Shown here: positions 34,797 through 54,657 of the stretch, piece by piece
Numbering within the stretch: position 1 is the first letter of the stretch
Layout: each line of letters begins with the position of its first letter
DNA from: an uncultured Gemmatimonadales bacterium
GTDB lineage: Bacteria > Gemmatimonadota > Gemmatimonadetes > Gemmatimonadales > GWC2-71-9
Direction: 5' to 3'
Assembly: GCA_963779755.1 (NCBI GenBank)
Contig: CAVZZO010000001.1
Span: 416,001-480,000 of the forward strand
DNA length: 64,000 nucleotides
Translations under genes and position numbers: made by a program
The notes under the pieces: model-generated
Databases searched by the model: none
What the model was told of the DNA's origin: nothing
What the model saw: only the letters and a program-made list of their open reading frames with translations

Positions 34797-37414
34797 GCCT
34801 CGACCGCCTCGCCGCCGCCCTGGCCGACCGCTATCGGATCGAGCGCGAGCTGGGGGCCGGCGGCATGGCCACGGTGTACCTGGCCGAGGATCTCAAGCAC
34901 GACCGGCAGGTGGCCATCAAGGTCCTGAAGCCCGAGCTGGCCGCCGTGCTCGGCGCCGAGCGCTTCGTGGTGGAGATCAAGACCACGGCAGCGTTGAGCC
35001 ATCCGCATATTCTGCCGCTGTTCGACAGTGGCCGGGCCGTCGTTCCCCCTCTCCGCGACGCGGAGAGGGGGACAGGGGGTGAGGTCTTCCTCTACTATGT
35101 GATGCCCTTCATTGAGGGGGAAACCCTCCGCGACAAGTTGAACCGGGAGGGCCAGCTCGGTATCGACGAGGCGGTGAGGATCACCACCGAGGTGGCGGAC
35201 GCGTTGGACTATGCCCACCGCCACGGGGTGATCCACCGTGACATCAAGCCGGAGAACATCCTGCTGCACGACGGCCGGCCGATGGTGGCGGATTTCGGGA
35301 TCGCGCTGGCGGTGAGCGCCGCGGCCGGCGGACGGATGACCGAGACCGGGCTCTCCCTCGGCACTCCGCACTACATGAGCCCGGAGCAGGCGACGGCGGA
35401 GAAGGAGTTGACCAACCGGTCGGACATCTACTCGCTGGGGAGCGTGCTGTACGAGATGCTGACGGGGAGCCCGCCGCACACCGGGGCCTCGGTGCAGCAG
35501 ATCATCATGAAGATCGTGGCGGAGGATCCGGCACCGGTCACGGCGTTCCGGAAGAGTGTGCCGCCTAATGTGGCGGCCGCGGTGGGGAAGGCGCTGGAGA
35601 AGGTGCCGGCCGACCGGTTTGCGACGGCGAAGGAGTTTGCCGACGCGCTGGCGAATGTCCACTTCACCACGGAGGCGGCAGCAGCGGGCGCCGCAGGCGG
35701 CTATCCCCAGAGCTTCCGGAGCTGGGTCCGGAGTCCCTGGTCGTGGGCCGCCGCCGTGCTGGTGGTCGCCGCCGGTGCCTGGGCGGTGAGGGCGAACCGG
35801 GGGGCGTCCGCCTTGTCCACGGCGATTTTCGAGCCATGGACCTTCGAATCGCAGTCGATCTTCAACGCCCGCTTCGCCCCCGACGGACAGACGATGGTGT
35901 TCGATGCCATGCCCGCTGTGGGCCTGACACCCCGGCTCTTCGTGATCCGGTCCGACCATCCCGATCCCGCTCCCCTAGGGCCCGACTCGACCCACCTCCT
36001 GAGTGTGTCGGGGAGTGGAAAGCTCGCGATCCTTACACACGCCACCTACGTGGCTCACCGGTTGTTCCGGGGAACACTCGCGACGATCTCCCTGGGGACC
36101 GAGGCGCCGCGCGAGCTGGCCGCCGGGGTGCGTGAAGCCGACTGGGCGCCGGACGACACCAGCCTGGCCGTCATCCGCGACAGCGCCGGTACGGACCTGC
36201 TCGAGTATCCGGTGGGGACAGTACTCGTTCGGTCACAGGGGTATCTCTCGGACCCGAGGGTCTCGCCATCGGGCGATGCCGTGGCGTACTTCGAACATCC
36301 GGCGAAGTGGGACGACCGTGGTACCGCCGTGATGGTGGACCGCGCGGGCCGCACCGAGGCGCGCTCTCCCGAATCCTGGGGGCTTGAAGGAATCGCCTGG
36401 CAGCCGGACGGCAAGGCCATCGTGTATTCCGCTGCCGGAGCGCAGCTGGCGAGCCTCTATCAGCCGCGGGAGCTGGACCGATCTGGACGCGACCGGTTGG
36501 TACTCTCCGGCCCCGGCAATCTGGTGATCCAGGACGTCTCCCGGAGCGGCCGCCTGTTGCTGACGGAAGACCGGACGCCTTACGTGCTGGTTGGGCGAGG
36601 GACGGGTGCCCCGGATGAGAAGGCCCTGGGGGTGCGCGACCTGTCAAGCGTACCGGTGATAAGCCCCGACGGCCGGCATCTGGCATTCTCGGACCAGAGC
36701 GGGTTCGGCGGTCCCAACTACACGGTGTTGTGGCGCAGCACGGACGGCTCGCCCCCGGTTCCCCTCGGCGAGGGCGGGCCAGGGGGCATCTCCGCCGACA
36801 ACGGTCTTGTCCTGGCACTCGTGTACACCAATCCCCCGAAACTCATGCTCTACCCTACGGGTCCCGGCAGGTCACGGCGCGTCGATTCGGGACAGTTCCA
36901 GTCGCTCACGAAATCCGGTGCGCTCCGGGTCTCCCCGACGGACACCACCGTGTTCTTCTGTGGTGCGGAGCCGAAGCAGGCGGGGCGCTGCTATGTCGCA
37001 AAGCTTCCCGCCGGGACCATTACCCCGGTCACACCCCCGGGAGCCTCCCCTGGATGGCTCTCGCCCGATGGGAGTAACGTGCTCGTGAGAACGAACGGCT
37101 TCACGATCTACCCCACGGATGGCGGCCCGCCGCGGCCCGCGCACGGCTTCCGTCCGGGGGACCTCCCGATCCGGTGGAGCCCGGATGGGCACGACGTCTG
37201 GGTCTGGTCGAACCCACTCGCGATTTCGCCCATTCGCATTGATCGGATCGATCCGGTGACCGGCGCGCGCGCCGCACTCGTGAGCATCGTGCCACGCGAC
37301 CCGACCGGCGTGCGGCAACTCGGCTTCCTGACCCTGGCCGATGACCCGCACGGCTATGCATTCGTCGAATATCCCTACGTGTCGCGGCTCTTCACTGTGG
37401 ACGGGGTCCGGTGA
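34793..37414 (+). CDS. Array kinase 4: Ser/Thr kinase - TM - WD40-like propellers, with in-frame hairpin insert
   Basis: GTGA overlap; full kinase motifs; IFNARFAPDG-type sensor. Confidence 0.95.
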   Translation: MSLDRLAAALADRYRIERELGAGGMATVYLAEDLKHDRQVAIKVLKPELAAVLGAERFVVEIKTTAALSHPHILPLFDSGRAVVPPLRDAERGTGGEVFLYYVMPFIEGETLRDKLNREGQLGIDEAVRITTEVADALDYAHRHGVIHRDIKPENILLHDGRPMVADFGIALAVSAAAGGRMTETGLSLGTPHYMSPEQATAEKELTNRSDIYSLGSVLYEMLTGSPPHTGASVQQIIMKIVAEDPAPVTAFRKSVPPNVAAAVGKALEKVPADRFATAKEFADALANVHFTTEAAAAGAAGGYPQSFRSWVRSPWSWAAAVLVVAAGAWAVRANRGASALSTAIFEPWTFESQSIFNARFAPDGQTMVFDAMPAVGLTPRLFVIRSDHPDPAPLGPDSTHLLSVSGSGKLAILTHATYVAHRLFRGTLATISLGTEAPRELAAGVREADWAPDDTSLAVIRDSAGTDLLEYPVGTVLVRSQGYLSDPRVSPSGDAVAYFEHPAKWDDRGTAVMVDRAGRTEARSPESWGLEGIAWQPDGKAIVYSAAGAQLASLYQPRELDRSGRDRLVLSGPGNLVIQDVSRSGRLLLTEDRTPYVLVGRGTGAPDEKALGVRDLSSVPVISPDGRHLAFSDQSGFGGPNYTVLWRSTDGSPPVPLGEGGPGGISADNGLVLALVYTNPPKLMLYPTGPGRSRRVDSGQFQSLTKSGALRVSPTDTTVFFCGAEPKQAGRCYVAKLPAGTITPVTPPGASPGWLSPDGSNVLVRTNGFTIYPTDGGPPRPAHGFRPGDLPIRWSPDGHDVWVWSNPLAISPIRIDRIDPVTGARAALVSIVPRDPTGVRQLGFLTLADDPHGYAFVEYPYVSRLFTVDGVR
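35044..35072. repeat. REP-like palindrome inside kinase coding sequence
   Basis: TCCCCCTCTCCGC-GAC-GCGGAGAGGGGGA; second copy at 45732-45760. Confidence 0.85.
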
Positions 37415-40038
37415 GCGACGTGCCTGCCCGCCTCGCCGCCGCCCTGGCCGACCGCTACCGGATCGAGCGCGAGCTGGGCCAGGGCGGCATGGCCACCGTC
37501 TACCTGGCCCAGGACCTGAAGCACGACCGCAGGGTGGCCATCAAGGTCCTGAAGCCCGAACTCGCGGCGGTGCTGGGCGCCGAGCGGTTTGTCCAGGAGA
37601 TCAAGACCACCGCGGCGCTGAGCCACCCGCATATCCTGCCTTTGTTTGACAGCGGGCGGGCGGGCGGTCAGGCGGACGGGCGGTCGGATGACTTCCTGTA
37701 CTACGTCATGCCCTATATCGAGGGGGAGACCCTTCGCGACAAGCTGGACCGGGAAGCCCAGCTCGGCATCCACGAGGCGGTCAAGATCGCCACCGAAGTG
37801 GCCGACGCGCTGGACTATGCGCACCGGCACGGGGTGATCCATCGCGACATCAAGCCGGAGAACATCCTGCTGCACGACGGCCGGCCCATGGTGGCCGATT
37901 TCGGGATCGCCCTGGCGGTGAGCGCCGCGGCGGGCGGCCGGATGACCGAGACGGGCCTGTCCCTCGGCACACCGCATTACATGTCGCCCGAACAGGCGAC
38001 GGCCGAGAAAGAGCTCACCAGCCGTTCGGACATCTACTCGCTCGGCGCGGTGCTGTACGAGATGCTGACCGGCGATCCGCCGCACACCGGGGCCACGGTG
38101 CAGCAGATCATCATGAAGATCGTGACCGAGGACCCCGCCCCGGTCACCAAGGCGCGCCGGTCGGTTCCGCCCAATGTGGCGGCGGCGGTGAGCCAGGCGC
38201 TGGAGAAGGTACCGGCCGACCGGTTCGACTCCGCCAAGGCGTTCGCCGAGGCGCTGGCGGATCCCCACTTCAGGACCGCGCGCTCCGGCGCGGGTGGCGC
38301 GTTGTCGCCCACCGCGCCGGGCTTCCGGCCCTTGCTGCGCAGTCCCTGGTGGTGGGGCACGGTCGCGGTGGCCGCGGGAGCGGTACTGCTGGCCGTCGCC
38401 CTGCCCCGCCATGGGGCACCGGCCTCGGCGCCGTGGTTCACGGCCCAGACGTTCGATGCGCGTACGATCTTCAATGCGCGCTTCATGCCCGATGGGAAGA
38501 CGATGGTGTTCAGCGGCACGCCCGACGTTGGAACGGAGTCGCACCTGTACGTCATCCGGCCCGATCATCCGGACCCCGCCGCCTTCGGACCGGATTCGAC
38601 ACACCTGCTGAACGTCTCACAGGCCGGTGAGCTCGCCGTCCTCACGCATGCACGCTACGTCGGACGGCACCGGCTCTTTACCGGCACGCTGGCGACCCTG
38701 TCGCTTGGGGGCGAGGCGCCCCACGAGGTGACGACCGGCGTGCGCGAGGCCGATTGGGGTCCGGACGGGAAGAGCATGGCGGTGATTCGGGACAGCAGCG
38801 GCACCGACCTGCTGGAGTACCCGGTGGGGACGGTCCTGGTCCGGTCCCAGGGCTATCTGTCCGACCCCAGGATCTCGCCCTCGGGAGACGCGATCGCGTA
38901 TCTCCAGCACCCCGCCAGGTTCGACGACCGCGGGTATGCCGTCATCGCCGACCGTGCGGGGCAACCGCTGGTACGGTCGGGAGACTACCCCAGCATCGAA
39001 GGGATCGCGTGGCGGCCGGACGGGAGGAGCATCCTGTACTCGGCCGCGGGCGACGCAAGTGCCGGCGTTGCCGGCTACGCGCTGCGTGAGCTCGCCCGGT
39101 CGGGGCAGGACCGCTGGGCCCTCTCCGGCACGGGCGGCCTGACGGTACAGGACGTCTCCCCGCAGGGCCGGGTGCTGCTTACCGATGACCGGCAAATGTA
39201 CCGCGTCGTCGGGCGGGGGCCGGGCGCCACCGAGGAGACGAACCTCGGGGTGCGTAACCTTTCGGCCCGGCCGGTCCTCAGCCGGGACGGACGGTATCTC
39301 ATGTTCAGCGACATGAGCGTCACGGGAGGTTCCCACTATTCGGTGCTGCGCCGTGGCACGAACGGCTCGCCGCCGGGCCGCCTCGGCGAGGGAACGCCGC
39401 TGGCGGTGTCCCCGGACGGCGGGCTCGTTCTGGCCGGGGTGATCACCACGCCCCCCAGGCTCATGCTCTACCCGACGGGGCCGGGCACGGCGCGCCGCAT
39501 TGACGCCGGACAGTTGCAGGCATTCGACGCGTCCGCCGGTGACGTTCGCCTCGCCGGGAGCGACACCATCGCGTTCTTCTGCGGCACGGAGTCGGAGCAG
39601 GCCGGGCGTTGTTACGTTGACTCGCTGCCGCGGGGAATCCTCACCCCGGTCACGCCGCTCGGAACGTCGCAGGGAATCGTCTCGCCGGACGGCCGCAGTG
39701 TGCTGGCCCAGGTCGGCGACAGTGTGGCGCTCTATCCGCTGGGGGGAGGGGCGCCACGCCGGGCGCTCGGCGTCCGTCCCGGAGACTATCTGGTGCGCTG
39801 GAGCCCGGATGGACGGGAGGTCTGGGTATGGGCCAATTCCGGGTCGGTCGCGCCCCCGCATTTCGACCGCATCGATCCCCTGACCGGTGAGCGTGGCCCG
39901 CTGTTCACTGCCGCCTCCCGCGATCTCGGCGGGGTGCGCGGCATGTTCTGGCCGACCCTGGCCGACGATCCGCAGGTGTACGCGTACGACCAGTTGGTCT
40001 ACACATCGCTGCTCTACACCGTGGACAGTCTGCGATGA
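37411..40038 (+). CDS. Array kinase 5: Ser/Thr kinase - TM - WD40-like propellers (closest paralog of kinase 4)
   Basis: GTGA overlap; shares GPDSTHLL, DSxGTDLLEYPVGTVLVRSQGYLSDPR with kinase 4. Confidence 0.95.
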   Translation: MSDVPARLAAALADRYRIERELGQGGMATVYLAQDLKHDRRVAIKVLKPELAAVLGAERFVQEIKTTAALSHPHILPLFDSGRAGGQADGRSDDFLYYVMPYIEGETLRDKLDREAQLGIHEAVKIATEVADALDYAHRHGVIHRDIKPENILLHDGRPMVADFGIALAVSAAAGGRMTETGLSLGTPHYMSPEQATAEKELTSRSDIYSLGAVLYEMLTGDPPHTGATVQQIIMKIVTEDPAPVTKARRSVPPNVAAAVSQALEKVPADRFDSAKAFAEALADPHFRTARSGAGGALSPTAPGFRPLLRSPWWWGTVAVAAGAVLLAVALPRHGAPASAPWFTAQTFDARTIFNARFMPDGKTMVFSGTPDVGTESHLYVIRPDHPDPAAFGPDSTHLLNVSQAGELAVLTHARYVGRHRLFTGTLATLSLGGEAPHEVTTGVREADWGPDGKSMAVIRDSSGTDLLEYPVGTVLVRSQGYLSDPRISPSGDAIAYLQHPARFDDRGYAVIADRAGQPLVRSGDYPSIEGIAWRPDGRSILYSAAGDASAGVAGYALRELARSGQDRWALSGTGGLTVQDVSPQGRVLLTDDRQMYRVVGRGPGATEETNLGVRNLSARPVLSRDGRYLMFSDMSVTGGSHYSVLRRGTNGSPPGRLGEGTPLAVSPDGGLVLAGVITTPPRLMLYPTGPGTARRIDAGQLQAFDASAGDVRLAGSDTIAFFCGTESEQAGRCYVDSLPRGILTPVTPLGTSQGIVSPDGRSVLAQVGDSVALYPLGGGAPRRALGVRPGDYLVRWSPDGREVWVWANSGSVAPPHFDRIDPLTGERGPLFTAASRDLGGVRGMFWPTLADDPQVYAYDQLVYTSLLYTVDSLR

Positions 40039-42956
40039 GCGGCATCATGAACCTCGACAGGTTCCAGGCCAGCCTCGCCGGCCGCTACACGATCGAGCGA
40101 GAGCTGGGGCAGGGCGGCATGGCCACGGTGTACCTGGCGGAGGACCTGAAGCACGGCCGCCAGGTGGCGATCAAGGTGCTCAAACCGGAACTGGCCGCCG
40201 TGCTGGGCGCCGAGCGGTTCCTGCGCGAGATCCGGATCGCCGCCAACCTGCAGTCCCCGCACATCCTTCCCCTGCTGGACTCGGGCGATGCCGACGGCCT
40301 TCTCTATTACGTGATGCCGTTCGTGCGCGGCGAATCGCTGCGCGACCGGCTCGCGCGCGACGGCGCGATGTCGCCGCCCGGGTCCGCGCGCCTGCTGCGG
40401 GAGGTCACCGACGGCCTGGCGCACGCCCACCGTCATGGTGTGGTCCATCGCGACATCAAACCCGACAACGTCATGCTCGCCGAGGGGCATGCGCTGTTGA
40501 TGGACTTCGGCGTGGCCAAAGCGATCGCGGCCGGCCACAGCGACGCGCCCGGCGGCGATTCGGCGACTCTCACTGACGTCGGAATCTCGGTGGGTACACC
40601 GGCATACATGGCGCCGGAACAGGCCGCGGCGGATCCGGCGATCGATGCCCGCGCCGACATCTACAGCCTGGGCGTCATGGCGTACGAGCTCCTCTCCGGA
40701 GCACCGCCGTTTACGGGCACGCCGCAGGCGGTCATGACGGCGCACGTCCTCACGCCTCCCGCTCCACTGCCGGATGCCGTTCCGCCAGCCATCGCGGCCA
40801 TCGTGATGCGGTGCCTGGCGAAGGATCCCGACCGCCGGTACCAGAACGCGGACGAGCTGCTGGCCGCCTTCGATGCGCTGGTGACACCCACCGGAACCGC
40901 GATGGTCCCGGGAGGCCGTCCCGCCGCCCGGCGGCGGAAAATCGCGCTGGCAGTCGTCGCCATCGCCGCGGTGGGGGCCGCGGCGTTCTTCGGCATCCGG
41001 AGCATGCAGCGTCATGCCTGGGTGAGCGGGACCGCGATCCCCGAGATGGGGCGGATGATCGAGGATGGCCAGATGGACAGTGCCTGGTATGTGGGCCTCC
41101 GAGCGCAGGCGATCGCGCCACGGGACACCATCCTTGCGGCGCTGTTCACCCAGTTGAGTCACGGTCGCCGGCCTTCGATCATCACCCGCCCGGCCGGGGC
41201 CACTGTGTATCGCGCGTCTCTCGGGGACACCAGCGTCTGGCACTACGTGGGGACGACACCTATCGACTCGATGGAACTCCCGTTCCAGACCGGCCTCTAT
41301 CGTTTCGAGAAGCCAGGGTACCGGACCCTGTACACGACCGGCATGTACCTGCCTTTTCCGCTGATGCTCAATACGGTCGCGGATACGGATTCGGCCCTGA
41401 TCCCCGTCGCCGGCGGGCCGCGGTACAGTACGTTTCTCGTCGGCACCGAAGGATCACCCGAGCTGTCGCTCCGCGACTGGAAGATCGATCGATACGAGAC
41501 GACCAACCGCCAGTACAAGGCGTTCGTGGAGGCCGGCGGATATCGCGACAGCACCTGGTGGGACTATCCGTTCAAAGAGGGCAACCGCACGCTCACGTGG
41601 TCTCAGGCGATGACACGGTTCGTCGACCAGACGGGACGCCCGGGACCCTCGACCTGGGTTGCCGGGGACTACCCGTCCGGGCAGGCCGACATGCCGGTCG
41701 GCGGCGTCAGCTGGTACGAAGCCGCCGCGTATGCCAGGTGGGCGGGAAAATCGCTCCCCACCGTGTACCACTGGGCGCGCGCCGCGGGCACCTGGCTCTC
41801 GTCGGCCATCGTGCCGCTGAGCAATTTGCAGGGCACCGGGCCGTGGAAAGTCGGTACACCGCGCGCCGTGAGTCTGGTCGGCGCATCCGACATGGCGGGC
41901 AACGTGCGTGAGTGGTGCTACAACGAGGAAGCCACCAGCGGCGAGCGCTACATCGAGGGCGGCGGCTGGAGCGACCCCACCTACGCGTTCGTCGACGCCT
42001 ACGCCCAGCCGCCGATGGATCGCTCCGCGATCAACGGCATCCGGCTCGCGCGGTACGATCCCGCGGACAGCAACCTCGCGCTCGCACGGCGGCCGCTGGT
42101 GCGTGCGTTTACCGACTACGCGAAGGTCCCATCTGTCCCGGACGCGGTATTCGAAGGCTATCGCCACCAGTTCGACTACGATCCGCTTCCGCTGGAGTCC
42201 CGGGTCGAACGCGTGGATTCCAGCAGCGACGAGTGGCTTGCCCAGTTTGTGAGCTTCACCGCCGCCTACGGCGGAGAGCGGATGGAGGCGTGGGTCTTCC
42301 TCCCCAGGAGGGGCACCCCGCCGTACCAGCCCGTCGTGTTCTTTCCCGGGTCCGGCGCGATCAACACCCGCACCAGCGCCCGACGGCGCGACATGACGCC
42401 GAGCTTTGTGGTGAAGAGCGGACGCGCGTTCGTGCTGCCGATCTACAAGAGCACCTACGAACGGTCGGACAGCCTGACGAGCGACATCCCCGACCAGTCC
42501 ATCTTCTGGCGGGATCACGTCATCATGTGGGGGAAAGACTTCCGGCGGACCCTCGACTATCTCAGCAGCCGGCCGGACATGGACAGCACCAGGTTCTCCT
42601 ACTTCGGCTACAGTTGGGGCGCCAACATGGGCGGGATCATTCCGGCGGTGGAACCGCGGATCAAGGCAGCGGTGCTGTACGTCGCCGGCCTCACCATGGA
42701 GCGGCCGAGGCCGGAGGTCGATCCCATCAATTTCCTGCCGCACATCCACATCCCGGCCCTGATGTTGAACGGGAAGTACGACTTCTTCTTCCCGACGGAG
42801 ACATCGCAGCGTCCGTTCTTCGAGCGGCTGGGTACTCCGTCCGCGGACAAGAAGTGGGTGGTGTATGAAGGCGGCCACGATGTACCACGCCCACGCCTCA
42901 TCGGCGAGACGCTCGCCTGGCTCGACAAGTACCTGGGACCGGTGAATCCCCGATGA
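40035..42956 (+). CDS. Array kinase 6: Ser/Thr kinase - TM - FGE-sulfatase-like - alpha/beta-hydrolase
   Basis: ATGA overlap; IDRYETTNRQY, VSWYEAAAYARW, DMAGNVREW (FGE family); GYSWG, NGKYD, GGHD (hydrolase triad). Confidence 0.93.
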   Translation: MSGIMNLDRFQASLAGRYTIERELGQGGMATVYLAEDLKHGRQVAIKVLKPELAAVLGAERFLREIRIAANLQSPHILPLLDSGDADGLLYYVMPFVRGESLRDRLARDGAMSPPGSARLLREVTDGLAHAHRHGVVHRDIKPDNVMLAEGHALLMDFGVAKAIAAGHSDAPGGDSATLTDVGISVGTPAYMAPEQAAADPAIDARADIYSLGVMAYELLSGAPPFTGTPQAVMTAHVLTPPAPLPDAVPPAIAAIVMRCLAKDPDRRYQNADELLAAFDALVTPTGTAMVPGGRPAARRRKIALAVVAIAAVGAAAFFGIRSMQRHAWVSGTAIPEMGRMIEDGQMDSAWYVGLRAQAIAPRDTILAALFTQLSHGRRPSIITRPAGATVYRASLGDTSVWHYVGTTPIDSMELPFQTGLYRFEKPGYRTLYTTGMYLPFPLMLNTVADTDSALIPVAGGPRYSTFLVGTEGSPELSLRDWKIDRYETTNRQYKAFVEAGGYRDSTWWDYPFKEGNRTLTWSQAMTRFVDQTGRPGPSTWVAGDYPSGQADMPVGGVSWYEAAAYARWAGKSLPTVYHWARAAGTWLSSAIVPLSNLQGTGPWKVGTPRAVSLVGASDMAGNVREWCYNEEATSGERYIEGGGWSDPTYAFVDAYAQPPMDRSAINGIRLARYDPADSNLALARRPLVRAFTDYAKVPSVPDAVFEGYRHQFDYDPLPLESRVERVDSSSDEWLAQFVSFTAAYGGERMEAWVFLPRRGTPPYQPVVFFPGSGAINTRTSARRRDMTPSFVVKSGRAFVLPIYKSTYERSDSLTSDIPDQSIFWRDHVIMWGKDFRRTLDYLSSRPDMDSTRFSYFGYSWGANMGGIIPAVEPRIKAAVLYVAGLTMERPRPEVDPINFLPHIHIPALMLNGKYDFFFPTETSQRPFFERLGTPSADKKWVVYEGGHDVPRPRLIGETLAWLDKYLGPVNPR

Positions 42957-45478
42957 CGCGGGACCGTCTCACTGCCGCCCTGGCCGGCCGCTACCGCATC
43001 GAGCGTGAGCTGGGTGCGGGCGGCATGGCCACAGTCTATCTGGCCGGGGACCTGAAGCACGGCCGCAAGGTGGCGATCAAGGTCATGCATCCCCAACTCG
43101 CCGCCGCCATCGGGGTCGAGCGGTTCCTCGCCGAGATCCAGACCACGGCCAACCTGCAGCATCCCCACATCCTGCCGCTGTTCGACTCGGGCGAGGTGGA
43201 CGGTACCGTCTTCTATGTCATGCCCTTTGTCGAAGGCGAGACGCTGCGCGATCGCCTGGACCGGGAGACGCAGCTGCCCATCGCCGACGCAGTGCGTATC
43301 GCCAGCGAGATCGGCGCCGCCCTGGACCATGCGCACCGGCAGGGCGTGATCCATCGCGATATCAAGCCGGAGAATATCCTGCTGCGCGAAGGCCACGTCC
43401 TGGTGGCGGACTTCGGGATTGCCCTGCCGGCCGGGAAGGCCGCCGGAGCCCGGCTCACCGAGACCGGCATGTCCCTTGGCACGCCGCAGTACATGAGCCC
43501 GGAACAGGCCATGGGGGAGCGCGAGATCGACGGGCGCAGCGACACCTTCGCGCTGGCCAGCGTGCTCTACGAGATGCTGCTGGGCCAGCCCCCGTTCACC
43601 GGCCCCAACGCCCAGGCGATCGTGGCGAAAATCATGACCGCCGACGCGCCGTCCCTTACCACGGAGCGGCGGACCGTCCCACCTACTATTGATCGGGCGG
43701 TCCGGCGGGCGCTGGAGCGGCTCCCGGCGGACCGGTTCGCCACCACCGCGGATTTCGTCTCGGCGCTGCAAGCACCCTCCACTCCGGCGCCGGCAGGATG
43801 GCGGCGCCCGGTGCTCGCCGCCGGGATCGTGGTCATCATTCTTGCCGGGATCGCCGCCGCTGCCTATCTGTGGAGTGGCCGGCGGACGGGGGGAAGGCCG
43901 GACGCGGCGGACCGCCGCCGGATCGTCGCCGTCCTGCCGTTCCGCAATATCTCGGCGGATACGGCCCAGCAGTACTTCAGCGCCGGGATGACCGAAGAAA
44001 TCACTTCGCAGCTGGCCAAAGTCGCATCGCTGCGGGTGCTGGGGCGGTCCGCCACCGCGCAGTACGATACCGTCGCCAATCGCCTGCAGCGGATGGCCAG
44101 CGATCTGGGCGTAGGCAGCGTGGTGGAGGGAAGCGTGCGACTGGCCGGCGACCGGGTCCGGATCGACGTCGAGCTGACCGACGTCCAGTCGGGCCAGTCG
44201 CTCTGGTCCGATCAGTACCAGCGCCAGATCGCCGATATCTTCGCGGTGCAGGACGACGTCGCCATCCAGGTCACCAGCGCGCTGCAGGCCGCCCTGACGC
44301 CGTCCGAGGCCAAACGCCTTGCGCAGGCACCGACCACCAGCCCGGCCGCGCATCAGATCTACCTGCGGGCGCGTGCGTTGAATCCGACGGACCGGTCGGA
44401 GAACCTCGCCCAGGCGGAGCTGTTGCGCCAGGCGATCGCCATCGACACCGGTTATGCGCTGGCGTATGCCTATCTGGCCCGCAACTACATGTTCCGCGGC
44501 GTGGGCGGGGAACCAGAGTGGATCGACTCGGGCTTTGTCGCCGCCCGTCGCGCCGTGGCGATGGACTCCGATCTGGCCGACGGGTATTTCGCGCTGGGCG
44601 ACGTGCAGTCCATCCGCCTGAAGTTCGCCGACGCGCGCCGGTCCTATCTCCGGGCGCTCGAACTGGAACCCAGTCACGATGGGGCGATGGCCGACCTGGC
44701 CAACGTGTACACTGCGCTGGGCCGCTACGACGAGGCACTCGACTGGGCGCTTCGGTCCGCCCAGCTCGACCCCAATCATCCCCACGCGCCCTATCACGTG
44801 GGCCTGCCCCTCATCGCGCTGGGTGACGACTCCGCCACCGCCCGGTACCTGCATGCCGCCGAGCGCAAACGGCCGGCGGAACTACGGGTGCAGGGGCTGC
44901 TGGCCTGGCTGGACATGAGGCGAGGCGCCCCGGCGGCCGCACTGGCGCGAGCCCGCAAGATGGTGGCGGACAATCCCGATAACACCGAGGGCCGCCCGAT
45001 TCTGGCGGAGCTTGCCTTCCTCGCCGGGGCCCCCGATGCGGAGCAGCTGCTCCAGCCGCTGGTCGAGGCCGATCCCGAGACGCCGTCGCAATACGACGCT
45101 GAGGGACTGCGCTCCATGTTTGCTCTGACCCTGCGACAACACGGTGACGGCGGGGAGGCCGCGGATCTGTGGCGGCAGTCGGCCGCGGCGGCGCGGCAGC
45201 AACTCGCCGCCGGCGCGGAAGGACCGGCGGCACAGATGGAGCTGGCCGCGATCAACGCGATCCAGGGCAACACGAACGAAGCGATGGACTGGCTCGAAAA
45301 GGGCTATCGCGCCGGGTGGAAAGACGCCCGGCAGGTGGGGCTCGATCCATTCTTTGCCCCGGTCCGCCAGGACCCCCGGTACCGGGCCGTGCTGGCGAAC
45401 ATGCGGCAGGACGTCGCGGAGATGCGCAAGCGGGCCGCCGCGGCGCACCCGGAGCTCTTTCAGGGAACGACGCCATGA
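42953..45478 (+). CDS. Array kinase 7: Ser/Thr kinase - TM - TolB-N - TPR
   Basis: ATGA overlap; VAVLPFRNIS...YFSAGMTEEI...VEGSVR; TPR helices. Confidence 0.95.
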   Translation: MTRDRLTAALAGRYRIERELGAGGMATVYLAGDLKHGRKVAIKVMHPQLAAAIGVERFLAEIQTTANLQHPHILPLFDSGEVDGTVFYVMPFVEGETLRDRLDRETQLPIADAVRIASEIGAALDHAHRQGVIHRDIKPENILLREGHVLVADFGIALPAGKAAGARLTETGMSLGTPQYMSPEQAMGEREIDGRSDTFALASVLYEMLLGQPPFTGPNAQAIVAKIMTADAPSLTTERRTVPPTIDRAVRRALERLPADRFATTADFVSALQAPSTPAPAGWRRPVLAAGIVVIILAGIAAAAYLWSGRRTGGRPDAADRRRIVAVLPFRNISADTAQQYFSAGMTEEITSQLAKVASLRVLGRSATAQYDTVANRLQRMASDLGVGSVVEGSVRLAGDRVRIDVELTDVQSGQSLWSDQYQRQIADIFAVQDDVAIQVTSALQAALTPSEAKRLAQAPTTSPAAHQIYLRARALNPTDRSENLAQAELLRQAIAIDTGYALAYAYLARNYMFRGVGGEPEWIDSGFVAARRAVAMDSDLADGYFALGDVQSIRLKFADARRSYLRALELEPSHDGAMADLANVYTALGRYDEALDWALRSAQLDPNHPHAPYHVGLPLIALGDDSATARYLHAAERKRPAELRVQGLLAWLDMRRGAPAAALARARKMVADNPDNTEGRPILAELAFLAGAPDAEQLLQPLVEADPETPSQYDAEGLRSMFALTLRQHGDGGEAADLWRQSAAAARQQLAAGAEGPAAQMELAAINAIQGNTNEAMDWLEKGYRAGWKDARQVGLDPFFAPVRQDPRYRAVLANMRQDVAEMRKRAAAAHPELFQGTTP

Positions 45479-47889
45479 GTGGAGCACCCCCGGGTCTGAT
45501 CGCAGCTCTGGCTGACCGCTACACCATCGAGCGCGAGCTGGGCGAGGGCGGCATGGCGACCGTCTACCTCGCCACCGACCTCAAGCATGGGCGACAGGTT
45601 GCTATCAAGGTGCTCAAGCCGGAGCTTGCCGCCGTCCTCGGCGCCGAGCGGTTCCTGGCGGAGATCAAGACGACGGCCAATCTGCGGCACCCGCATATCC
45701 TGCCGCTGTTTGACAGTGGCCGGGCCACCGTTCCCCCTCTCCCCGGTGGGGAGAGGGGGACAGGGGGTGAGGTCCTCTACTATGTTATGCCGTTCGTGGA
45801 GGGTGAGTCGCTGCGCGACCGGCTGACCCGCGACCGGCAGCTTCCGATCGGGGAGGCGCTGCAGATCTCCCGGGAGGTGGCCGACGCCTTGGGCTACGCC
45901 CACAGCCGGGGCATCGTGCATCGGGATATCAAGCCGGAGAATATCCTGCTGGAGAACGGCCACGCGGTGGTGGCCGATTTCGGCATCGCCCGCGCCGTCA
46001 GTTCCGCGGGCGGCGACCGGATCACCCAGACCGGCATGGCGGTCGGCACGCCGCTCTACATGAGCCCGGAGCAGGCGGCCGGTTCCGGCGATCTGGACGG
46101 CCGGAGCGATCTCTACAGCCTGGCCTGCGTGCTGTACGAAATGCTGGCCGGCGAGCCGCCCTTTACCGGCGCGACCCCGGCGGTGATCACCCGGCAGCAT
46201 ATGATTACCGAGGCAGCGCCGGTCACTAACAAGCGGCCGGCGGTACCCGCGCATGTGGCCGGCTCGCTGGCCCGCGCCCTGGCCAAGGACCCGGCCGACC
46301 GGTTCAACCCGGTGGCGCAGTTCGCACAGGCGCTCACCGATGGCCCAGCCGCCCCGGCAGCAACCGCGACGGCACCGGCCGACTCCTCCCGCTCACCGCG
46401 GCGCCGGTGGTTCGCCCTGGCGGCCGGCGGGGTGCTGGTCGTTGCCGCGGGCGCCTGGCTGTTGACCAGGACACTCCGGCAGGGAGGGGCCACAACAGCC
46501 GGGGTCATCCGGTCCATCGCGGTCATGCCGCTCGACGACTACTCGGCCGACTCGACCCAGGCGTACTTCGCCGAGGGAATGACCGACGAGCTTACCACCG
46601 ACCTGGCGAGCATCAGTTCGCTGCGGGTCATCTCGCGCGGGTCGGTCATGCAGTACGCCGGCGGCAACCGTCCTCCCGCCCCGGAGATTGCCCGGTCGCT
46701 GAACGTGGATGCGATTGTGGAAGGCTCCGTCACCCGCGCGGGCGACAGGGTGCGGATCACCGCCCAGCTGATTGACGCGCGGGCCGACCGTCATCTCTGG
46801 GCCCAGAGTTTCGAGCGGCAGTCGAGCGACGTGCTGGCGCTGCAGGCCGAGCTGGCCTCGGCTATCGCCAGCGCCATCAACGCGCGGATCACCCCCGCCG
46901 AGCAGACCCGGCTGGCCGCGGCACCGACGGTCGATCCGGCGGCGCACGACGCCTACCTGCGCGGCCGGTACTTCTTCGCCCGGCCGAACGATGAAAATCT
47001 GGAGAAGGCCATCGCGCAGTTCAACCAGGCGGTCAGTCTGAGTCCCGATTTCGCGCCGGCCTGGTCCGGCCTGTCCGACGCGTATCTGTGGGCGGCGTTC
47101 AACGAGGGGTTCATCAGTGCTCGCGAGGCCGGCCCCAGAGCCAGGGAGGCGGCCGAGCGTGCGGTGCAGCTCGACAGCACGTTGGCGGAGGGTCACACCT
47201 CGCTCGGGACTTATCTGGCGTGGTTCGCGCACGACTGGACCGGGAGTGAGCGCGAATTGCGCCGCGCCATCGCGCTCAATCCCAACTACGCCTTCGCGCA
47301 CGACCAGTTCGGACTGATCCTCAGTATCCTGGGGCGATTTGACGCGGCGATCGCCGAGGGGAAGCGGGCCATGGCGCTCGACCCCCTGTCGCCGTCTATC
47401 CTGATTGATGCCATGGTGGCGTTTGTTTACCGGCCCGATGTGCCGGCCGCCACCGCGCTGGCCCAACGCACCAGCGACCTCGATCCCACCTTCTTCTTTC
47501 CCTATTCGCTCATGGCCAAGCTCGACGTCCAGCTGGGGAAGGCGCGGGAGGCGGTTTCCCTGCTGGAGAAGGCCCGCACCATGGGGGCCCCCTCGTTTGT
47601 GACCGGCGAGCTGGCCTATGCCTACGGGATGACCGGCGACCAGGCCAGGGCCGAGGCGACACTCGCCGATCTGAAGAAGATGTCGCGCAGCGGCGAGGGG
47701 TTGCCTTATGACCTGGCGCTCTACTACCTGGGGCAGCGCAATACGGCCCGCACGCTGGACTACCTGGAGCAGGCGTTTGCCGCCGATGCCCAATCGCTGG
47801 TGTGGCTCAAGGAGGATACCATCTACGATCCGCTACGGCAGAACCCGCGGTTCATCGCGCTCATGCAGAAGATGCACTTCACCTCATGA
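45475..47889 (+). CDS. Array kinase 8: Ser/Thr kinase - TM - TolB-N - TPR, with in-frame hairpin insert
   Basis: ATGA overlap at 45475; SIAVMPL...YFAEGMTDEL; TPR helices. Confidence 0.95.
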   Translation: MSGAPPGLIAALADRYTIERELGEGGMATVYLATDLKHGRQVAIKVLKPELAAVLGAERFLAEIKTTANLRHPHILPLFDSGRATVPPLPGGERGTGGEVLYYVMPFVEGESLRDRLTRDRQLPIGEALQISREVADALGYAHSRGIVHRDIKPENILLENGHAVVADFGIARAVSSAGGDRITQTGMAVGTPLYMSPEQAAGSGDLDGRSDLYSLACVLYEMLAGEPPFTGATPAVITRQHMITEAAPVTNKRPAVPAHVAGSLARALAKDPADRFNPVAQFAQALTDGPAAPAATATAPADSSRSPRRRWFALAAGGVLVVAAGAWLLTRTLRQGGATTAGVIRSIAVMPLDDYSADSTQAYFAEGMTDELTTDLASISSLRVISRGSVMQYAGGNRPPAPEIARSLNVDAIVEGSVTRAGDRVRITAQLIDARADRHLWAQSFERQSSDVLALQAELASAIASAINARITPAEQTRLAAAPTVDPAAHDAYLRGRYFFARPNDENLEKAIAQFNQAVSLSPDFAPAWSGLSDAYLWAAFNEGFISAREAGPRAREAAERAVQLDSTLAEGHTSLGTYLAWFAHDWTGSERELRRAIALNPNYAFAHDQFGLILSILGRFDAAIAEGKRAMALDPLSPSILIDAMVAFVYRPDVPAATALAQRTSDLDPTFFFPYSLMAKLDVQLGKAREAVSLLEKARTMGAPSFVTGELAYAYGMTGDQARAEATLADLKKMSRSGEGLPYDLALYYLGQRNTARTLDYLEQAFAADAQSLVWLKEDTIYDPLRQNPRFIALMQKMHFTS
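45732..45760. repeat. REP-like palindrome inside kinase coding sequence (copy 2)
   Basis: TCCCCCTCTCCCC-GGT-GGGGAGAGGGGGA. Confidence 0.85.
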
Positions 47890-53611: not shown

Positions 53612-54612
53612 AGCACCTACTGCAGCGAGCGCTCCTGGCGCTCGCGACCGTCATGATCCCCGCTGCCGTGACGGCCCAGACAGCCATGTCCGGCAACCCC
53701 GTCCTGCCGGGCTGGTACGCCGATCCCGAGGCCCACGTCTTCGCCGGTGAGTACTGGATCTATCCCACCACCTCGGACCGTTACGACAAGCAGGTGTACC
53801 TCGACGCCTTTTCCTCGCCCGATCTGATCACCTGGACGAAGCATTCCCACGTGCTTGATACCGCCAATGTGAAGTGGGCGCACCGCGCGATGTGGGCGCC
53901 GTCCATCGTGGAGAAGGACGGCTGGTACTATCTCTTCTTTGGCGCCAACGACATCCAGAACGACAGTACCCTGGGCGGTATCGGCGTGGCGCGGAGTCGT
54001 TCCCCCGGCGGGCCGTTCACCGACTGGCTGGGCCATCCGCTGATCGACAAATTCCATAACGGCGCCCAGCCCATCGACCAGATGGTCTTCCGGGACGTGG
54101 ACGGCAGCTATTACATCGTCTATGGCGGCTGGGGACACTGCAATATCGCCCACCTCAACGCCGACTTCACCGGCTTCGTTCCGTTCGCCGACGGCACCAG
54201 GTTCAGGGAAATCACGCCCAACGGGTATGTCGAGGGCGCCTTCATGCTGATCCGTGGCGGCAAGTACTACTTCATGTGGTCGGAGGGCGGCTGGACGGGG
54301 CCCGACTACGCCGTGGCCTATGCCATCGGTACCTCGCCCTTCGGGCCGTTCGAGCGGGTGGGCAAGATCCTGCAGCAGGATTCCACCGTGGCTACCGGTG
54401 CCGGGCACCATTCGGTGCTGCACGCCCCGGGTTCGCCGCACTGGTACATCGTCTATCATCGCCGCCCGCTGGGGGAGACCGATCGTGATCATCGGGCGGT
54501 GAGTATTGAAGAGCTGCATTTTGATTCGGCGGGCCGGATCCTGCCGGTGAGGATCACGTTCACCGGGGTGGCGGCCGATCCGTTACACGCGGCTCCACAC
54601 GGCGGACGCTGA
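53608..54612 (+). CDS. Exported glycoside hydrolase family 43
   Basis: Signal peptide from GTG 53608; NPVLPGWYADP, WAPS, QPID, VEG, GHHS motifs; the frame is also open from 53488. Confidence 0.92.
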   Translation: MKHLLQRALLALATVMIPAAVTAQTAMSGNPVLPGWYADPEAHVFAGEYWIYPTTSDRYDKQVYLDAFSSPDLITWTKHSHVLDTANVKWAHRAMWAPSIVEKDGWYYLFFGANDIQNDSTLGGIGVARSRSPGGPFTDWLGHPLIDKFHNGAQPIDQMVFRDVDGSYYIVYGGWGHCNIAHLNADFTGFVPFADGTRFREITPNGYVEGAFMLIRGGKYYFMWSEGGWTGPDYAVAYAIGTSPFGPFERVGKILQQDSTVATGAGHHSVLHAPGSPHWYIVYHRRPLGETDRDHRAVSIEELHFDSAGRILPVRITFTGVAADPLHAAPHGGR

Positions 54613-54633: not shown

Positions 54634-54657
54634 CCCCCTCCCTACACCGGGAGGGGG
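54634..54657. other. GC-rich hairpin between convergent genes (possible terminator or REP relative)
   Basis: CCCCCTCCC-TACACC-GGGAGGGGG followed by ACCCGGGG, resembling the intragenic kinase hairpins. Confidence 0.55.

What the first reader, a model, noticed from the sequence alone, without database searches (positions are those of the whole stretch)
35033..45774. REP-like palindrome inserted in frame at the same kinase loop in two dissimilar paralogs, with a compensatory base-pair change
Seen: after LFDSG most kinases have 5 residues before xxYVMP, but kinase 4 has 19 (RAVVPPLRDAERGTGGEVF) and kinase 8 has 18 (RATVPPLPGGERGTGGEV). The extra DNA is a 13-bp perfect stem with a 3-nt loop (35044-35072; 45732-45760) plus ACAGGGGGTGAGG. 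The stems differ by a G-C to C-G pair swap while the loop and the encoded residues change. A related hairpin is intergenic at 54634-54657. Established: palindromic elements inserted in frame in proteins are known (Rickettsia RPEs). Inference: the structure is maintained at nucleic-acid level, and this N-lobe loop (about beta4-beta5) is a landing site for a small mobile palindrome.
Basis: partly seen in the sequence, partly recalled or inferred. Interest (0 to 1): 0.78.

Follow-up and report, generated by a model that had tools for sequence, protein, structure and literature searches.

The report
Palindromic repeat inside kinase loops
A short hairpin-forming DNA repeat that normally sits between genes of this soil bacterium also sits in frame in one surface loop of several protein kinases, much like the palindromic elements inside Rickettsia genes.

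Summary
Both 13-bp-stem hairpins are real. A third kinase of the same genome carries the element at the same loop.

It belongs to a dispersed family: 17 good copies in this genome, 3 in kinases and 14 outside plausible genes. The family was found in 10 of 41 related Gemmatimonadota genomes searched.

Sixteen further kinase-borne copies came from other Gemmatimonadota assemblies. Across all 19, stems stay paired (93% of cells), 4 of 13 stem pairs show changes on both sides, the loop varies freely, and rare codons are kept. So the constraint acts on the nucleic acid, not only on the peptide.

"Two landings at one site" is not the best reading for K4 and K8. They share flanking sequence, which points to short-tract gene conversion between paralogs.

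On a wider scale this beta4-beta5 loop does collect other repeat families in relatives. The element is not kinase-specific: one relative has it in frame in three unrelated enzymes. No transposase is associated with it.

It works like Rickettsia palindromic elements and like REPs inside genes, so it is a new member of a known kind. This scan has noted in-frame repeats in kinase loops before on other DNA. What, if anything, the hairpin does is unknown.

The parts
34793..37414 (+). Kinase K4: Hanks-type Ser/Thr kinase with a PD40/beta-propeller C-terminus, 873 aa
   Evidence: ORF. Pfam PF00069 E 6.8e-45 and PF07676. PknB is the best solved relative.
35042..35086 (+). Family-A palindromic element in K4 (GTTCC ... 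GAGGTC), read in frame as VPPLRDAERGTGGEV
   Evidence: nhmmer E 4.8e-11. The same 45-nt layout occurs in intergenic copies g and h.
35044..35072 (+). Inner hairpin of K4: 13-bp stem, loop GAC
35073..35084 (+). Right outer arm CAGGGGGTGAGG. The left partner arm is missing in K4 and K8.
   Evidence: Its codons GGG GGT GAG are kept in 18, 17 and 19 of 19 kinase copies.
45475..47889 (+). Kinase K8: Hanks-type kinase with TolB_N and TPR C-terminus, 804 aa
   Evidence: The database's own gene call is 804 aa (P0001).
45730..45774 (+). Family-A element in K8, read as VPPLPGGERGTGGEV
   Evidence: E 7.5e-11.
45732..45760 (+). Inner hairpin of K8: 13-bp stem, loop GGT. The stem-top pair is C-G where K4 has G-C.
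37657..37698 (+). Loop of kinase K5, the closest paralog of K4. RAGGQADGRSDDFL is built from the genome's octamer repeat (GGCGGTCN)n, not from the palindrome.
13282..13323 (+). Loop of kinase K1 with the same octamer-derived insert (RAGGQAGGRSEEVL)
   Evidence: 93.75% identical to the K5 loop over 32 nt.
54634..54657 (.). Intergenic C-rich/G-rich hairpin 22 nt after the ORF that ends at 54612. Only loosely like family A.
   Evidence: Not found by the family profile.

Best explanation
The roughly 45-nt insert is one copy of a short, dispersed, GC-rich palindromic repeat of Gemmatimonadota. Its layout is CCTCACCCCC - CCCCCTCTCCNC - loop - GNGGAGAGGGGG - GGGGGTGAGG.

The family usually lies between genes. 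Where it lands in frame in a tolerant surface loop it survives as extra peptide, as Rickettsia palindromic elements do.

In these kinases it extends the beta4-beta5 hairpin of the N-lobe and leaves all catalytic motifs intact.

K4, K8 and the third kinase on contig C3 did not each catch it separately. The insert with a few flanking codons was most likely passed between paralogs by short-tract gene conversion, using the near-identical DNA on either side of the loop.

Once inside kinases it has persisted for a long time, even in genomes that have no extragenic copies. Its stem is kept paired at the DNA/RNA level. The cause is either selection on the hairpin or the self-correcting template-switch repair typical of quasi-palindromes.

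Shown: family membership, in-frame state, location, covariation, codon conservation, mosaic flanks, non-monophyly. Inferred: gene conversion as the route, and the reason why the stem is kept.
For: Family:
- A profile of 14 copies finds 28 places in the genome at E<=1, 17 of them at E<1e-4. Three are in kinases and 14 lie outside plausible ORFs.
- The third kinase copy (G000:C3:1438261-1438320, minus strand) has both outer arms. It is 94.5% identical over 55 nt to an intergenic copy.
- The core pattern occurs in 10 of 41 related genomes, all in one family-level group. The reversed control pattern matched in 1 of the 41.

Other kinases:
- 14 of 119 non-self database hits carry the same insert and 3 carry decayed forms.
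- A scan that fixed only the peptide of the right arm plus YVMP gave 22 loci. Nineteen hold the kinase loop and 16 of those are distinct.

Structure kept:
- In the inner helix 93.1% of cells are paired, against 49-64% when partners are slid.
- 4 of 13 pairs show changes on both sides (7 cells). Shuffles reach this in 4 of 500 and 1 of 500.
- Inside one well-supported kinase clade (12 rows, SH-aLRT 99), L099 has CCT/AGG changed to CCG/CGG, synonymous on both sides. L096 has T-A changed to C-G at the stem base.
- At identical amino acids the same codon is used in 0.86-0.94 of pairs in the element, against 0.55-0.56 in the flanks.
- The kept codons are rare ones: CCT 3.6%, AGG 5.2%, GGT 9.2%.
- The loop codon has 10 variants in 19 rows.

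Not one clade:
- The label needs 11 changes on the tree of 161 rows, at least 9 of them forced by starred branches.
- The AU test rejects one clade (delta lnL 748, p 6e-46) on a reduced set of 58 of the 161 rows.

Mosaic:
- Near the loop K4 resembles K8. Elsewhere it resembles K5 (Fisher p 1.5e-4).

Persistence without donors:
- G043 and G042 have the pattern only in the kinase. In G041 all 3 matches are in kinases.

Not kinase-specific:
- In G044 the element is in frame in an O6-methylguanine methyltransferase, in a radical-SAM protein (Pfam hit below the curated cut-off) and near the N-terminus of a molybdopterin oxidoreductase.
Against: - The unpaired right outer arm is conserved at synonymous sites as strongly as the stem (GGT in 17 of 19 rows). 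Pairing alone does not explain this.
- Folding energy is a weak test. Synonymous recodings fold as well as the native insert in 0-2 of 300 trials for K4, K8 and KC3, but in up to 90 of 300 for some other copies.
- The covariation shuffles ignore relatedness, and the 19 rows are kin.
- The +-10-codon window of the mosaic test was the best of five windows tried.
- K4=K8 near the loop could equally mean that K5 was overwritten by a K1-like loop.
- Gene calls are my own crude ORF and GC3 rules. Three of the 11 extragenic copies examined lie 5' of a gene rather than 3'.
- Copy number is low for a REP family.
- No expression or RNA data exist.
Confidence: 0.7

Rival explanations
1. Site-specific landing. 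A mobile palindrome, moved by some enzyme, repeatedly targets this exact spot of kinase genes. K4, K8 and KC3 would then be independent insertions.
For: - The same loop holds at least five other repeat types in relatives and in this genome: heptamer hairpins, (ACGACTC)n, the HPERSEGS-type repeat, GGGACGCG hairpins and octamers.
- KC3 differs in form (both outer arms, A-T stem top). It is nearly identical to an intergenic copy, and two more copies lie within about 650 bp of it.
- Insert-bearing kinases are polyphyletic.
Against: - K4 and K8 share identical insert boundaries, the same decayed left arm and K8-like flanking sites.
- No transposase is linked to the family. The three Y1 genes have other hairpins, and G016 has 12 copies but no Y1 gene.
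- No target-site duplication is visible.
- In G044 the element sits in unrelated genes at unrelated sites.
Confidence: 0.15
2. The hairpin has a function in the kinase mRNA or gene and is kept by selection. Candidates: a ribosome pause between the N-lobe strands, an RNase or protein-binding site that sets kinase level, or a recombination signal for shuffling paralogs.
For: - Long persistence with compensated stem changes and a free loop.
- Persistence in genomes without extragenic copies.
- Conservation of the unpaired GGGGGTGAGG motif, which suggests sequence-specific recognition.
Against: - No direct data at all.
- Close sister kinases do without it or carry other inserts.
- Decayed copies exist (P0020, P0076, P0077, L098, L103, L111).
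- There is no Rfam family.
Confidence: 0.25
3. There is no selection on structure. Palindromes correct themselves by intrastrand template switching, which turns a change in one arm into the matching change in the other. Apparent covariation is then a mutational by-product.
For: Changes on both sides are about as common as uncompensated ones in the inner stem. The mechanism is established for quasi-palindromes in E. coli and yeast (PMC7202029 and PMC3820800; I saw only the search listing and the start of each abstract).
Against: It does not explain the conserved unpaired outer arm or the conserved rare codons outside the stem. It also does not explain why mismatched copies persist (L103, L111, L109).
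Confidence: 0.3
4. One ancestral insertion conserved purely as peptide. The palindromy is then a leftover with no current constraint.
For: The peptide VPPLxxxERGxGGE is well conserved in 14 database kinases. AlphaFold places it as an extension of the beta4-beta5 hairpin.
Against: - The same codon is used in 0.86-0.94 of pairs in the element against 0.55 in the flanks.
- Rare codons are kept.
- CCT/AGG changed to CCG/CGG is synonymous on both sides.
- The residues at the stem top change (R/P/H with A/G/V) while pairing is kept.
- The AU test rejects one clade.
Confidence: 0.05

Closest known systems
Rickettsia palindromic elements (RPE; Ogata et al. 2000, as summarised in the MITE review PMC10969869, of which I read passages)
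   Same: A dispersed palindromic repeat that is inserted in frame into unrelated protein-coding genes. It adds a peptide in places compatible with the fold and is conserved in orthologs.
   Different: It is much shorter (about 45-57 nt against about 100-150 bp), GC-rich, and found in free-living soil Gemmatimonadota. It is concentrated in one loop of a large paralog family and spreads between paralogs. Sequence relationship to RPEs was not tested.
REPs inside genes (Di Nocera et al. 2013, PMC3733652; I read passages and additional file 3)
   Same: Short stem-loop repeats lying mainly downstream of genes, with a minority entirely inside ORFs and encoding 10-30 residues. Different REPs in Xanthomonas recB lie at about the same site. 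A Ser/Thr kinase of Opitutus terrae is listed with a REP at residues 625-640.
   Different: There is no GTAG or CGTC tag and no RAYT link. The insert is in the catalytic domain (beta4-beta5). Copy number is low. Covariation within the genic copies is documented here.
REP/BIME arrays and RAYT (REPtron) systems
   Same: Modular palindromic units. Related modules form tandem mosaic arrays in this genome (80-bp and 174-bp units).
   Different: The one RAYT-like gene of the genome (C1:953128-953475) is flanked by a different repeat. Presence of family A does not follow presence of Y1 genes across 41 genomes.
Tandem 7-9-mer hairpin repeats of Gemmatimonadales spacers (earlier notes of this scan, e1-2377831 and e1-2377832). 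Those notes name Rehm et al. 2015, PMC4692102, which I did not read.
   Same: They live in the same genomes. These repeats fill the same kinase loop in K1, K5 and in relatives G007 and G018.
   Different: Family A is a fixed-sequence palindrome, not a slippage-built array.
PknB of M. tuberculosis (PDB 3f69, 1mru)
   Same: Host protein fold. PknB also has a longish beta4-beta5 loop at the aligned place.
   Different: The PknB loop is not repeat-derived as far as the alignment shows. I know of no hairpin there (not tested).

Membership tests
REP (repetitive extragenic palindrome) | Short (20-40 bp) imperfect palindrome, dispersed, mostly extragenic and near gene ends | tested here: met
   There are 17 copies at E<1e-4, 14 of them outside plausible ORFs. 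Of the 11 examined closely, 8 lie 3' of a gene (3-368 nt from the stop) and 3 lie on a 5' side. Copy number is low.
REP (repetitive extragenic palindrome) | Conserved GTAG or CGTC tetranucleotide tag at one end (Di Nocera 2013) | tested here: not met
   Alignment of 14 copies shows no conserved GTAG or CGTC at either end. The conserved ends are CCTCACCCCC and GGGGGTGAGG.
REP (repetitive extragenic palindrome) | Association with a RAYT (Y1 transposase flanked by the same repeat) | tested here: not met
   The genome has three PF01797 genes. Two are IS200-like with their own hairpin. One is flanked by a different repeat. G016 has 12 copies and no Y1 gene; G017 has 3 Y1 genes and no copies.
Rickettsia palindromic elements (RPE) | Palindromic repeat found in frame inside ORFs of unrelated genes, encoding a peptide | tested here: met
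   Found in kinases. In G044 also in a methyltransferase, a radical-SAM protein and a molybdopterin oxidoreductase.
Rickettsia palindromic elements (RPE) | Sequence homology to RPE-1 to RPE-10; about 100-150 bp; genus Rickettsia | not tested
   No RPE sequence was compared. Length (45-57 nt) and host phylum differ, so this is an analog, not a member.
MITE | Terminal inverted repeats plus target-site duplication | tested here: inconclusive
   The outer arms act as inverted ends. No duplication is visible at the kinase sites, and no empty site was available for comparison.
Hanks-type Ser/Thr protein kinase (host genes) | Pkinase domain with intact VAIK, HRD, DFG and SPE motifs | tested here: met
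   PF00069 at E 7e-45 and 5e-47. The motifs are seen in the translations and are invariant in alignment A3. PknB aligns at E 2e-57.
Known RNA family (Rfam 15) | Match to a curated covariance model | tested here: not met
   Nothing at the hairpins in window 30000-56000 at E<=1.

The most novel reading that the evidence does not exclude
The beta4-beta5 loop of Gemmatimonadota Hanks kinases is a cassette site. The genomes' own intergenic repeats are captured there in frame again and again and are swapped between paralogs by short-tract conversion.

At least one of them, this palindrome, has become a functional nucleic-acid hairpin inside the coding sequence. It is kept by selection for long times even where all extragenic copies are gone. 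Candidate roles: control of kinase translation or mRNA fate, or a recombination signal that diversifies a roughly 45-member kinase family.
Probability: 0.22. Interest if true: 0.8.

Novelty: new member of a known kind. Interest (0 to 1): 0.55.

Why it matters
It shows Rickettsia-style "coding palindromes" in a free-living, GC-rich soil phylum, inside the catalytic domain of a signalling enzyme family.

The evidence quality is unusual. Covariation, some of it synonymous on both sides of a stem pair, shows that a coding segment is constrained as a hairpin as well as a peptide.

It also offers a natural test bed. Dozens of paralogs per genome carry different repeat-derived loops at one position. 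This allows study of how selfish or structural DNA becomes protein sequence, how gene conversion moves small cassettes between paralogs, and whether stable intragenic hairpins affect expression.

For annotation, peptides such as VPPLxxERGTGGE, HPERSEGS or LTTHDSRL in these kinases should be read as repeat-derived, not as functional motifs.

Tried and rejected
- RNA evidence: no RNA holder was listed for the K4 gene.
- The four DNA runs laid gave only contigs 85-95% alike from other organisms' kinases, with no cover over 35033-35080. One contig replaces the loop by 18 other letters, which is simply a short-loop relative. Nothing can be drawn from this.
- Folding energy against synonymous recoding is a weak discriminator, because Pro and Gly codons pair anyway. 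I relied on codon and pair counts instead.
- The AU test on all 161 rows did not finish in two runs. I ran it on a reduced set of 58 rows.
One paper search failed on a slash in a term and was not repeated in that form.
- The outer-arm 10-mer alone (40 copies) is not diagnostic. Of its 22 in-ORF occurrences only the three kinase copies adjoin a complete inner palindrome; one further, in a doubtful ORF at C3:1432049, adjoins a partial element; the rest are chance codings.
- RAYT link: looked for and not found.
- Rfam: nothing.
- Two paper searches for Gemmatimonadota palindromic repeats and for REPs in kinase loops found no report of this case.
- I considered CRISPR for the tandem hairpin arrays on C3. 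I rejected it because the "spacers" are themselves repeated.
Full report
**Setting**

The window is G000:C1:416001-480000 of a 4.23-Mb, 68.6% GC genome in four contigs. Database names of the closest proteins place it in Gemmatimonadota/Gemmatimonadales.

The window holds a tandem array of Hanks-type Ser/Thr kinase genes of about 800-970 codons. Genome-wide I count 45 such kinases with my loop regex.

**Observation**

Each has a 13-bp perfect stem and a 3-nt loop, followed by CAGGGGGTGAGG. Shuffles give no match. The 66-nt contexts fold at -43 kcal/mol, z about -3.

Both lie in frame in intact kinases: K4 (34793..37414) and K8 (45475..47889). The insert sits between DSG and YYVMP. Alignment to PknB and an AlphaFold model (mean pLDDT 86; beta4 78-84, loop 85-96, beta5 97-105) identify this as the beta4-beta5 loop of the N-lobe.

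Most paralogs have 5-6 residues there. Of 42 loops found by the first regex, 33 are short.

**A family, and a third kinase**

Searching the whole genome shows a palindromic family. Its consensus is CCTCACCCCC-(4-5 nt)-CCCCCTCTCCAC-(3-4 nt loop)-GTGGAGAGGGGG-(4-5 nt)-GGGGGTGAGG. Many copies have only one outer arm, as K4 and K8 do.

A profile built from 14 copies finds 28 places at E<=1. Seventeen have E<1e-4; the rest are a related family or fragments.

Three of the 17 are in kinases. The third, KC3 (G000:C3:1438261-1438320, minus strand), reads SLTPVPPLHDVERGQGGEVL at the same loop. It has both outer arms and an A-T pair where K4 has G-C and K8 has C-G.

The other 14 lie outside plausible ORFs by my crude ORF-plus-GC3 rule. 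Of the 11 I examined closely, 8 lie 3' of a gene (3-368 nt after the stop, some between convergent genes) and 3 lie on a 5' side.

The core pattern is present in 10 of 41 related genomes, all in the window's family-level group. Counts are 38 in G003, 14 in G000, 12 in G016, 10 in G011 and 8 in G002. The reversed control matched in 1 of the 41 genomes (G021). The tally includes the unpublished G014; without it, it is 9 of 40.

**The same insert in other kinases**

Among the 119 best non-self database hits to the K8 loop region, 14 carry xxVPPLxxxERGxGGE and 3 carry decayed versions. Both TPR-type and beta-propeller-type C-termini occur.

To obtain DNA without biasing the stem, I scanned two collections with a pattern that fixes only the peptide of the right arm (third codon positions free) and the YVMP flank. 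The left arm was left unconstrained. This gave 8 metagenome loci and 14 GTDB loci, 22 in all. Nineteen hold the kinase loop and 16 of those are distinct.

**Constraint at the nucleic-acid level**

On the 19-row alignment (16 distinct loci plus K4, K8 and KC3), the inner helix has 93.1% of cells paired. Six of 13 pairs never vary and 4 show changes on both sides (7 cells). Shuffles reach these values in 4 of 500 and 1 of 500. Sliding the partners gives 49-64% paired. These shuffles ignore relatedness, so they overstate.

More telling are changes inside one well-supported kinase clade (12 rows, SH-aLRT 99; 10 with the insert, 1 decayed, plus K5):
- L099 has CCT/AGG replaced by CCG/CGG, synonymous on both sides.
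- L096 has T-A replaced by C-G at the stem base.

At identical amino acids the same codon is used in 0.86-0.94 of sequence pairs within the element, against 0.55-0.56 in 50 codons of flank on each side. The conserved codons are rare in this genome: CCT 3.6%, AGG 5.2%, GGT 9.2%, GTT 5.5%.

The loop codon has 10 variants among 19 rows. The copies are therefore not simply young.

The stem-top residues change (R/P/H with A/G/V) as base pairing predicts.

Against a pure pairing model, the right outer arm has no partner in K4-type copies but is conserved just as well: GGG in 18, GGT in 17 and GAG in 19 of 19 rows. I cannot explain this. It hints at recognition of the sequence itself.

**One landing or several**

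With the loop columns removed, the kinase-domain tree (161 rows) scatters the insert-bearing kinases. It needs 11 changes, at least 9 forced by starred branches.

An AU test rejects a single clade (delta lnL 748, p 6e-46). It used a reduced set of 58 rows: all 20 insert rows, 16 named neighbours and 22 rows drawn at random from the remaining rows, with 12 long-branch rows barred from the draw. The full-set test did not finish.

Close sisters carry quite different loops: P0004/P0097, P0007/P0095, P0025/P0111, P0065/P0033, and K4/K5.

Yet K4 and K8 share the same boundaries and the same decayed left arm. Within 10 codons on either side of the element, K4 agrees with K8 at 9 of 12 informative sites. 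Elsewhere it agrees with K8 at 40 of 196 and with its close paralog K5 at 156 (Fisher p 1.5e-4; this was the best of five windows tried).

K5 in turn shares its loop with K1: 86% identity in the loop window against roughly 60-80% in most other windows.

The simplest reading is that small loop cassettes move between paralogs by short-tract gene conversion, using the very conserved DNA on either side of the loop.

KC3 may be a separate or more recent event. It has the full element, is 94.5% identical over 55 nt to an intergenic copy, and has two more copies within about 650 bp.

**The loop as a repeat trap**

K1 and K5 carry (GGCGGTCN)n, an octamer repeat that also forms intergenic arrays in this genome. 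Eight of 11 long loops in this genome have BLAST matches elsewhere in the genome.

In relatives the same loop holds:
- (GGTCGAG)n and (GGGAGTT)n hairpins of -46 to -53 kcal/mol in G007
- GGGACGCG hairpins in G024
- one-armed (ACGACTC)n in G018
- the GTCATCCTGAGCGAAGCGAAGGATC repeat ('HPERSEGS') in G018 and G012
- C/T-rich tracts in G002

The G007 and G018 units are those genomes' own dispersed repeats, with 137 and 87 matches. In the loci I could fetch they are mostly non-coding: 13 of 16 arrays for the G007 unit, and 7 of 15 for the (ACGACTC)n unit in the G018 and G024 loci. A few sit in other ORFs.

So the loop is a recurrent sink for repeats.

**Not kinase-specific, and independent of extragenic copies**

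In G043 and G042 the only match to the relaxed core pattern is the kinase copy. In G041 all 3 matches are in kinases.

In G045 the 18 matches include an extragenic-type variant whose stem top differs from that genome's kinase copies.

In G044 the element is in frame in three other genes:
- an O6-methylguanine-DNA methyltransferase (PF02870, PF01035)
- a radical-SAM protein (PF04055, below its cut-off)
- a molybdopterin oxidoreductase, near its N-terminus (PF00174)

**Mobilising enzyme**

The genome has three Y1 transposase genes. Two are identical IS200-like copies with their own hairpin. One RAYT-like gene is flanked on both sides by a different repeat.

Across 41 genomes, presence of Y1 genes does not follow presence of family A. 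No Rfam family matches.

**Comparison with what is known**

In-frame palindromic repeats are known:
- Rickettsia RPEs (review PMC10969869; passages read).
- REPs entirely inside ORFs in many species, including different REPs at about the same site of Xanthomonas recB, and a REP in a Ser/Thr kinase of Opitutus terrae at residues 625-640 (PMC3733652; passages and additional file 3).

Two searches found no paper on such inserts in Gemmatimonadota kinases.

Earlier notes of this scan describe intergenic tandem-repeat hairpins in this same genome and in-frame repeats in kinase loops of other genomes. So the kind has been seen before on other DNA.

**Verdict**

This is a real, well-documented, RPE-like coding palindrome with unusually clear evidence that the hairpin itself is constrained. 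It is a new member of a known kind. Its function, if any, is open.

Noticed in passing
G000:C3:1425925-1448784; C1:647469-648017; C1:678173-678832 (outside the window): Tandem arrays of 80-bp and 174-bp composite units. Each unit holds the hairpin TCCCCCTTCCC-N4-GGGAAGGGGGA, preceded by ACCCCCTG. The 174-bp unit also holds a long GTCACCCTGAG...CTCAGGGTGAC hairpin. They resemble BIME-like mosaics. They are not CRISPR, because the parts between the hairpins are repeated too.
   Followed up: partly
G000:C1:953128-953475: A RAYT-like Y1 transposase gene (PF01797, 77 bits). It is flanked on both sides by direct copies of GGCTGAAGCCGAGTCTCG...CTTTTCACTGAAGTGAAGCA, a repeat with only 5-7 copies genome-wide. 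It looks like a small REPtron unrelated to the kinase palindrome.
   Followed up: partly
G000:C1:2364775-2365134 and C3:1548553-1548912: Two identical IS200-like Y1 transposase genes, each next to the hairpin CCCTCGCCTGTAAGGCGAGGG. One lies at the end of contig C1.
   Followed up: no
window 35073-35084 and 45761-45772; all 19 kinase copies: The right outer arm GGGGGTGAGG has no pairing partner in K4-type copies. Even so, its synonymous sites are as conserved as the stem (GGT in 17 of 19 rows although GGT is a 9% codon). No explanation so far accounts for this.
   Followed up: partly
L187, L188, L189 (genome G044): The same palindrome is in frame in an O6-methylguanine-DNA methyltransferase, in a radical-SAM protein, and after the signal peptide of a molybdopterin oxidoreductase of another Gemmatimonadota assembly.
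   Followed up: partly
G000:C3:1438713-1438755 and 1438912-1438964: Two more family-A copies lie just upstream of kinase KC3. One has the same stem as the copy inside the gene and the reverse-complement loop, about 650 bp away. Together they form a large inverted pair around the gene's 5' part.
   Followed up: no
window 13036-53491: About a dozen kinase genes stand head to tail on the + strand, several with overlapping stop and start. They mix beta-propeller, TPR/TolB_N and other C-terminal modules behind near-identical kinase domains.
   Followed up: no
G000 genome-wide, e.g. C3:581185, C3:425030: The motif GTCAYCCTGAGSG occurs 67 times (TGTCACCCTGAGCGATAGCGAAGGGG... type), 59 of them outside plausible ORFs. 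In relatives this same repeat is what encodes 'HPERSEGS' in the kinase loop.
   Followed up: partly
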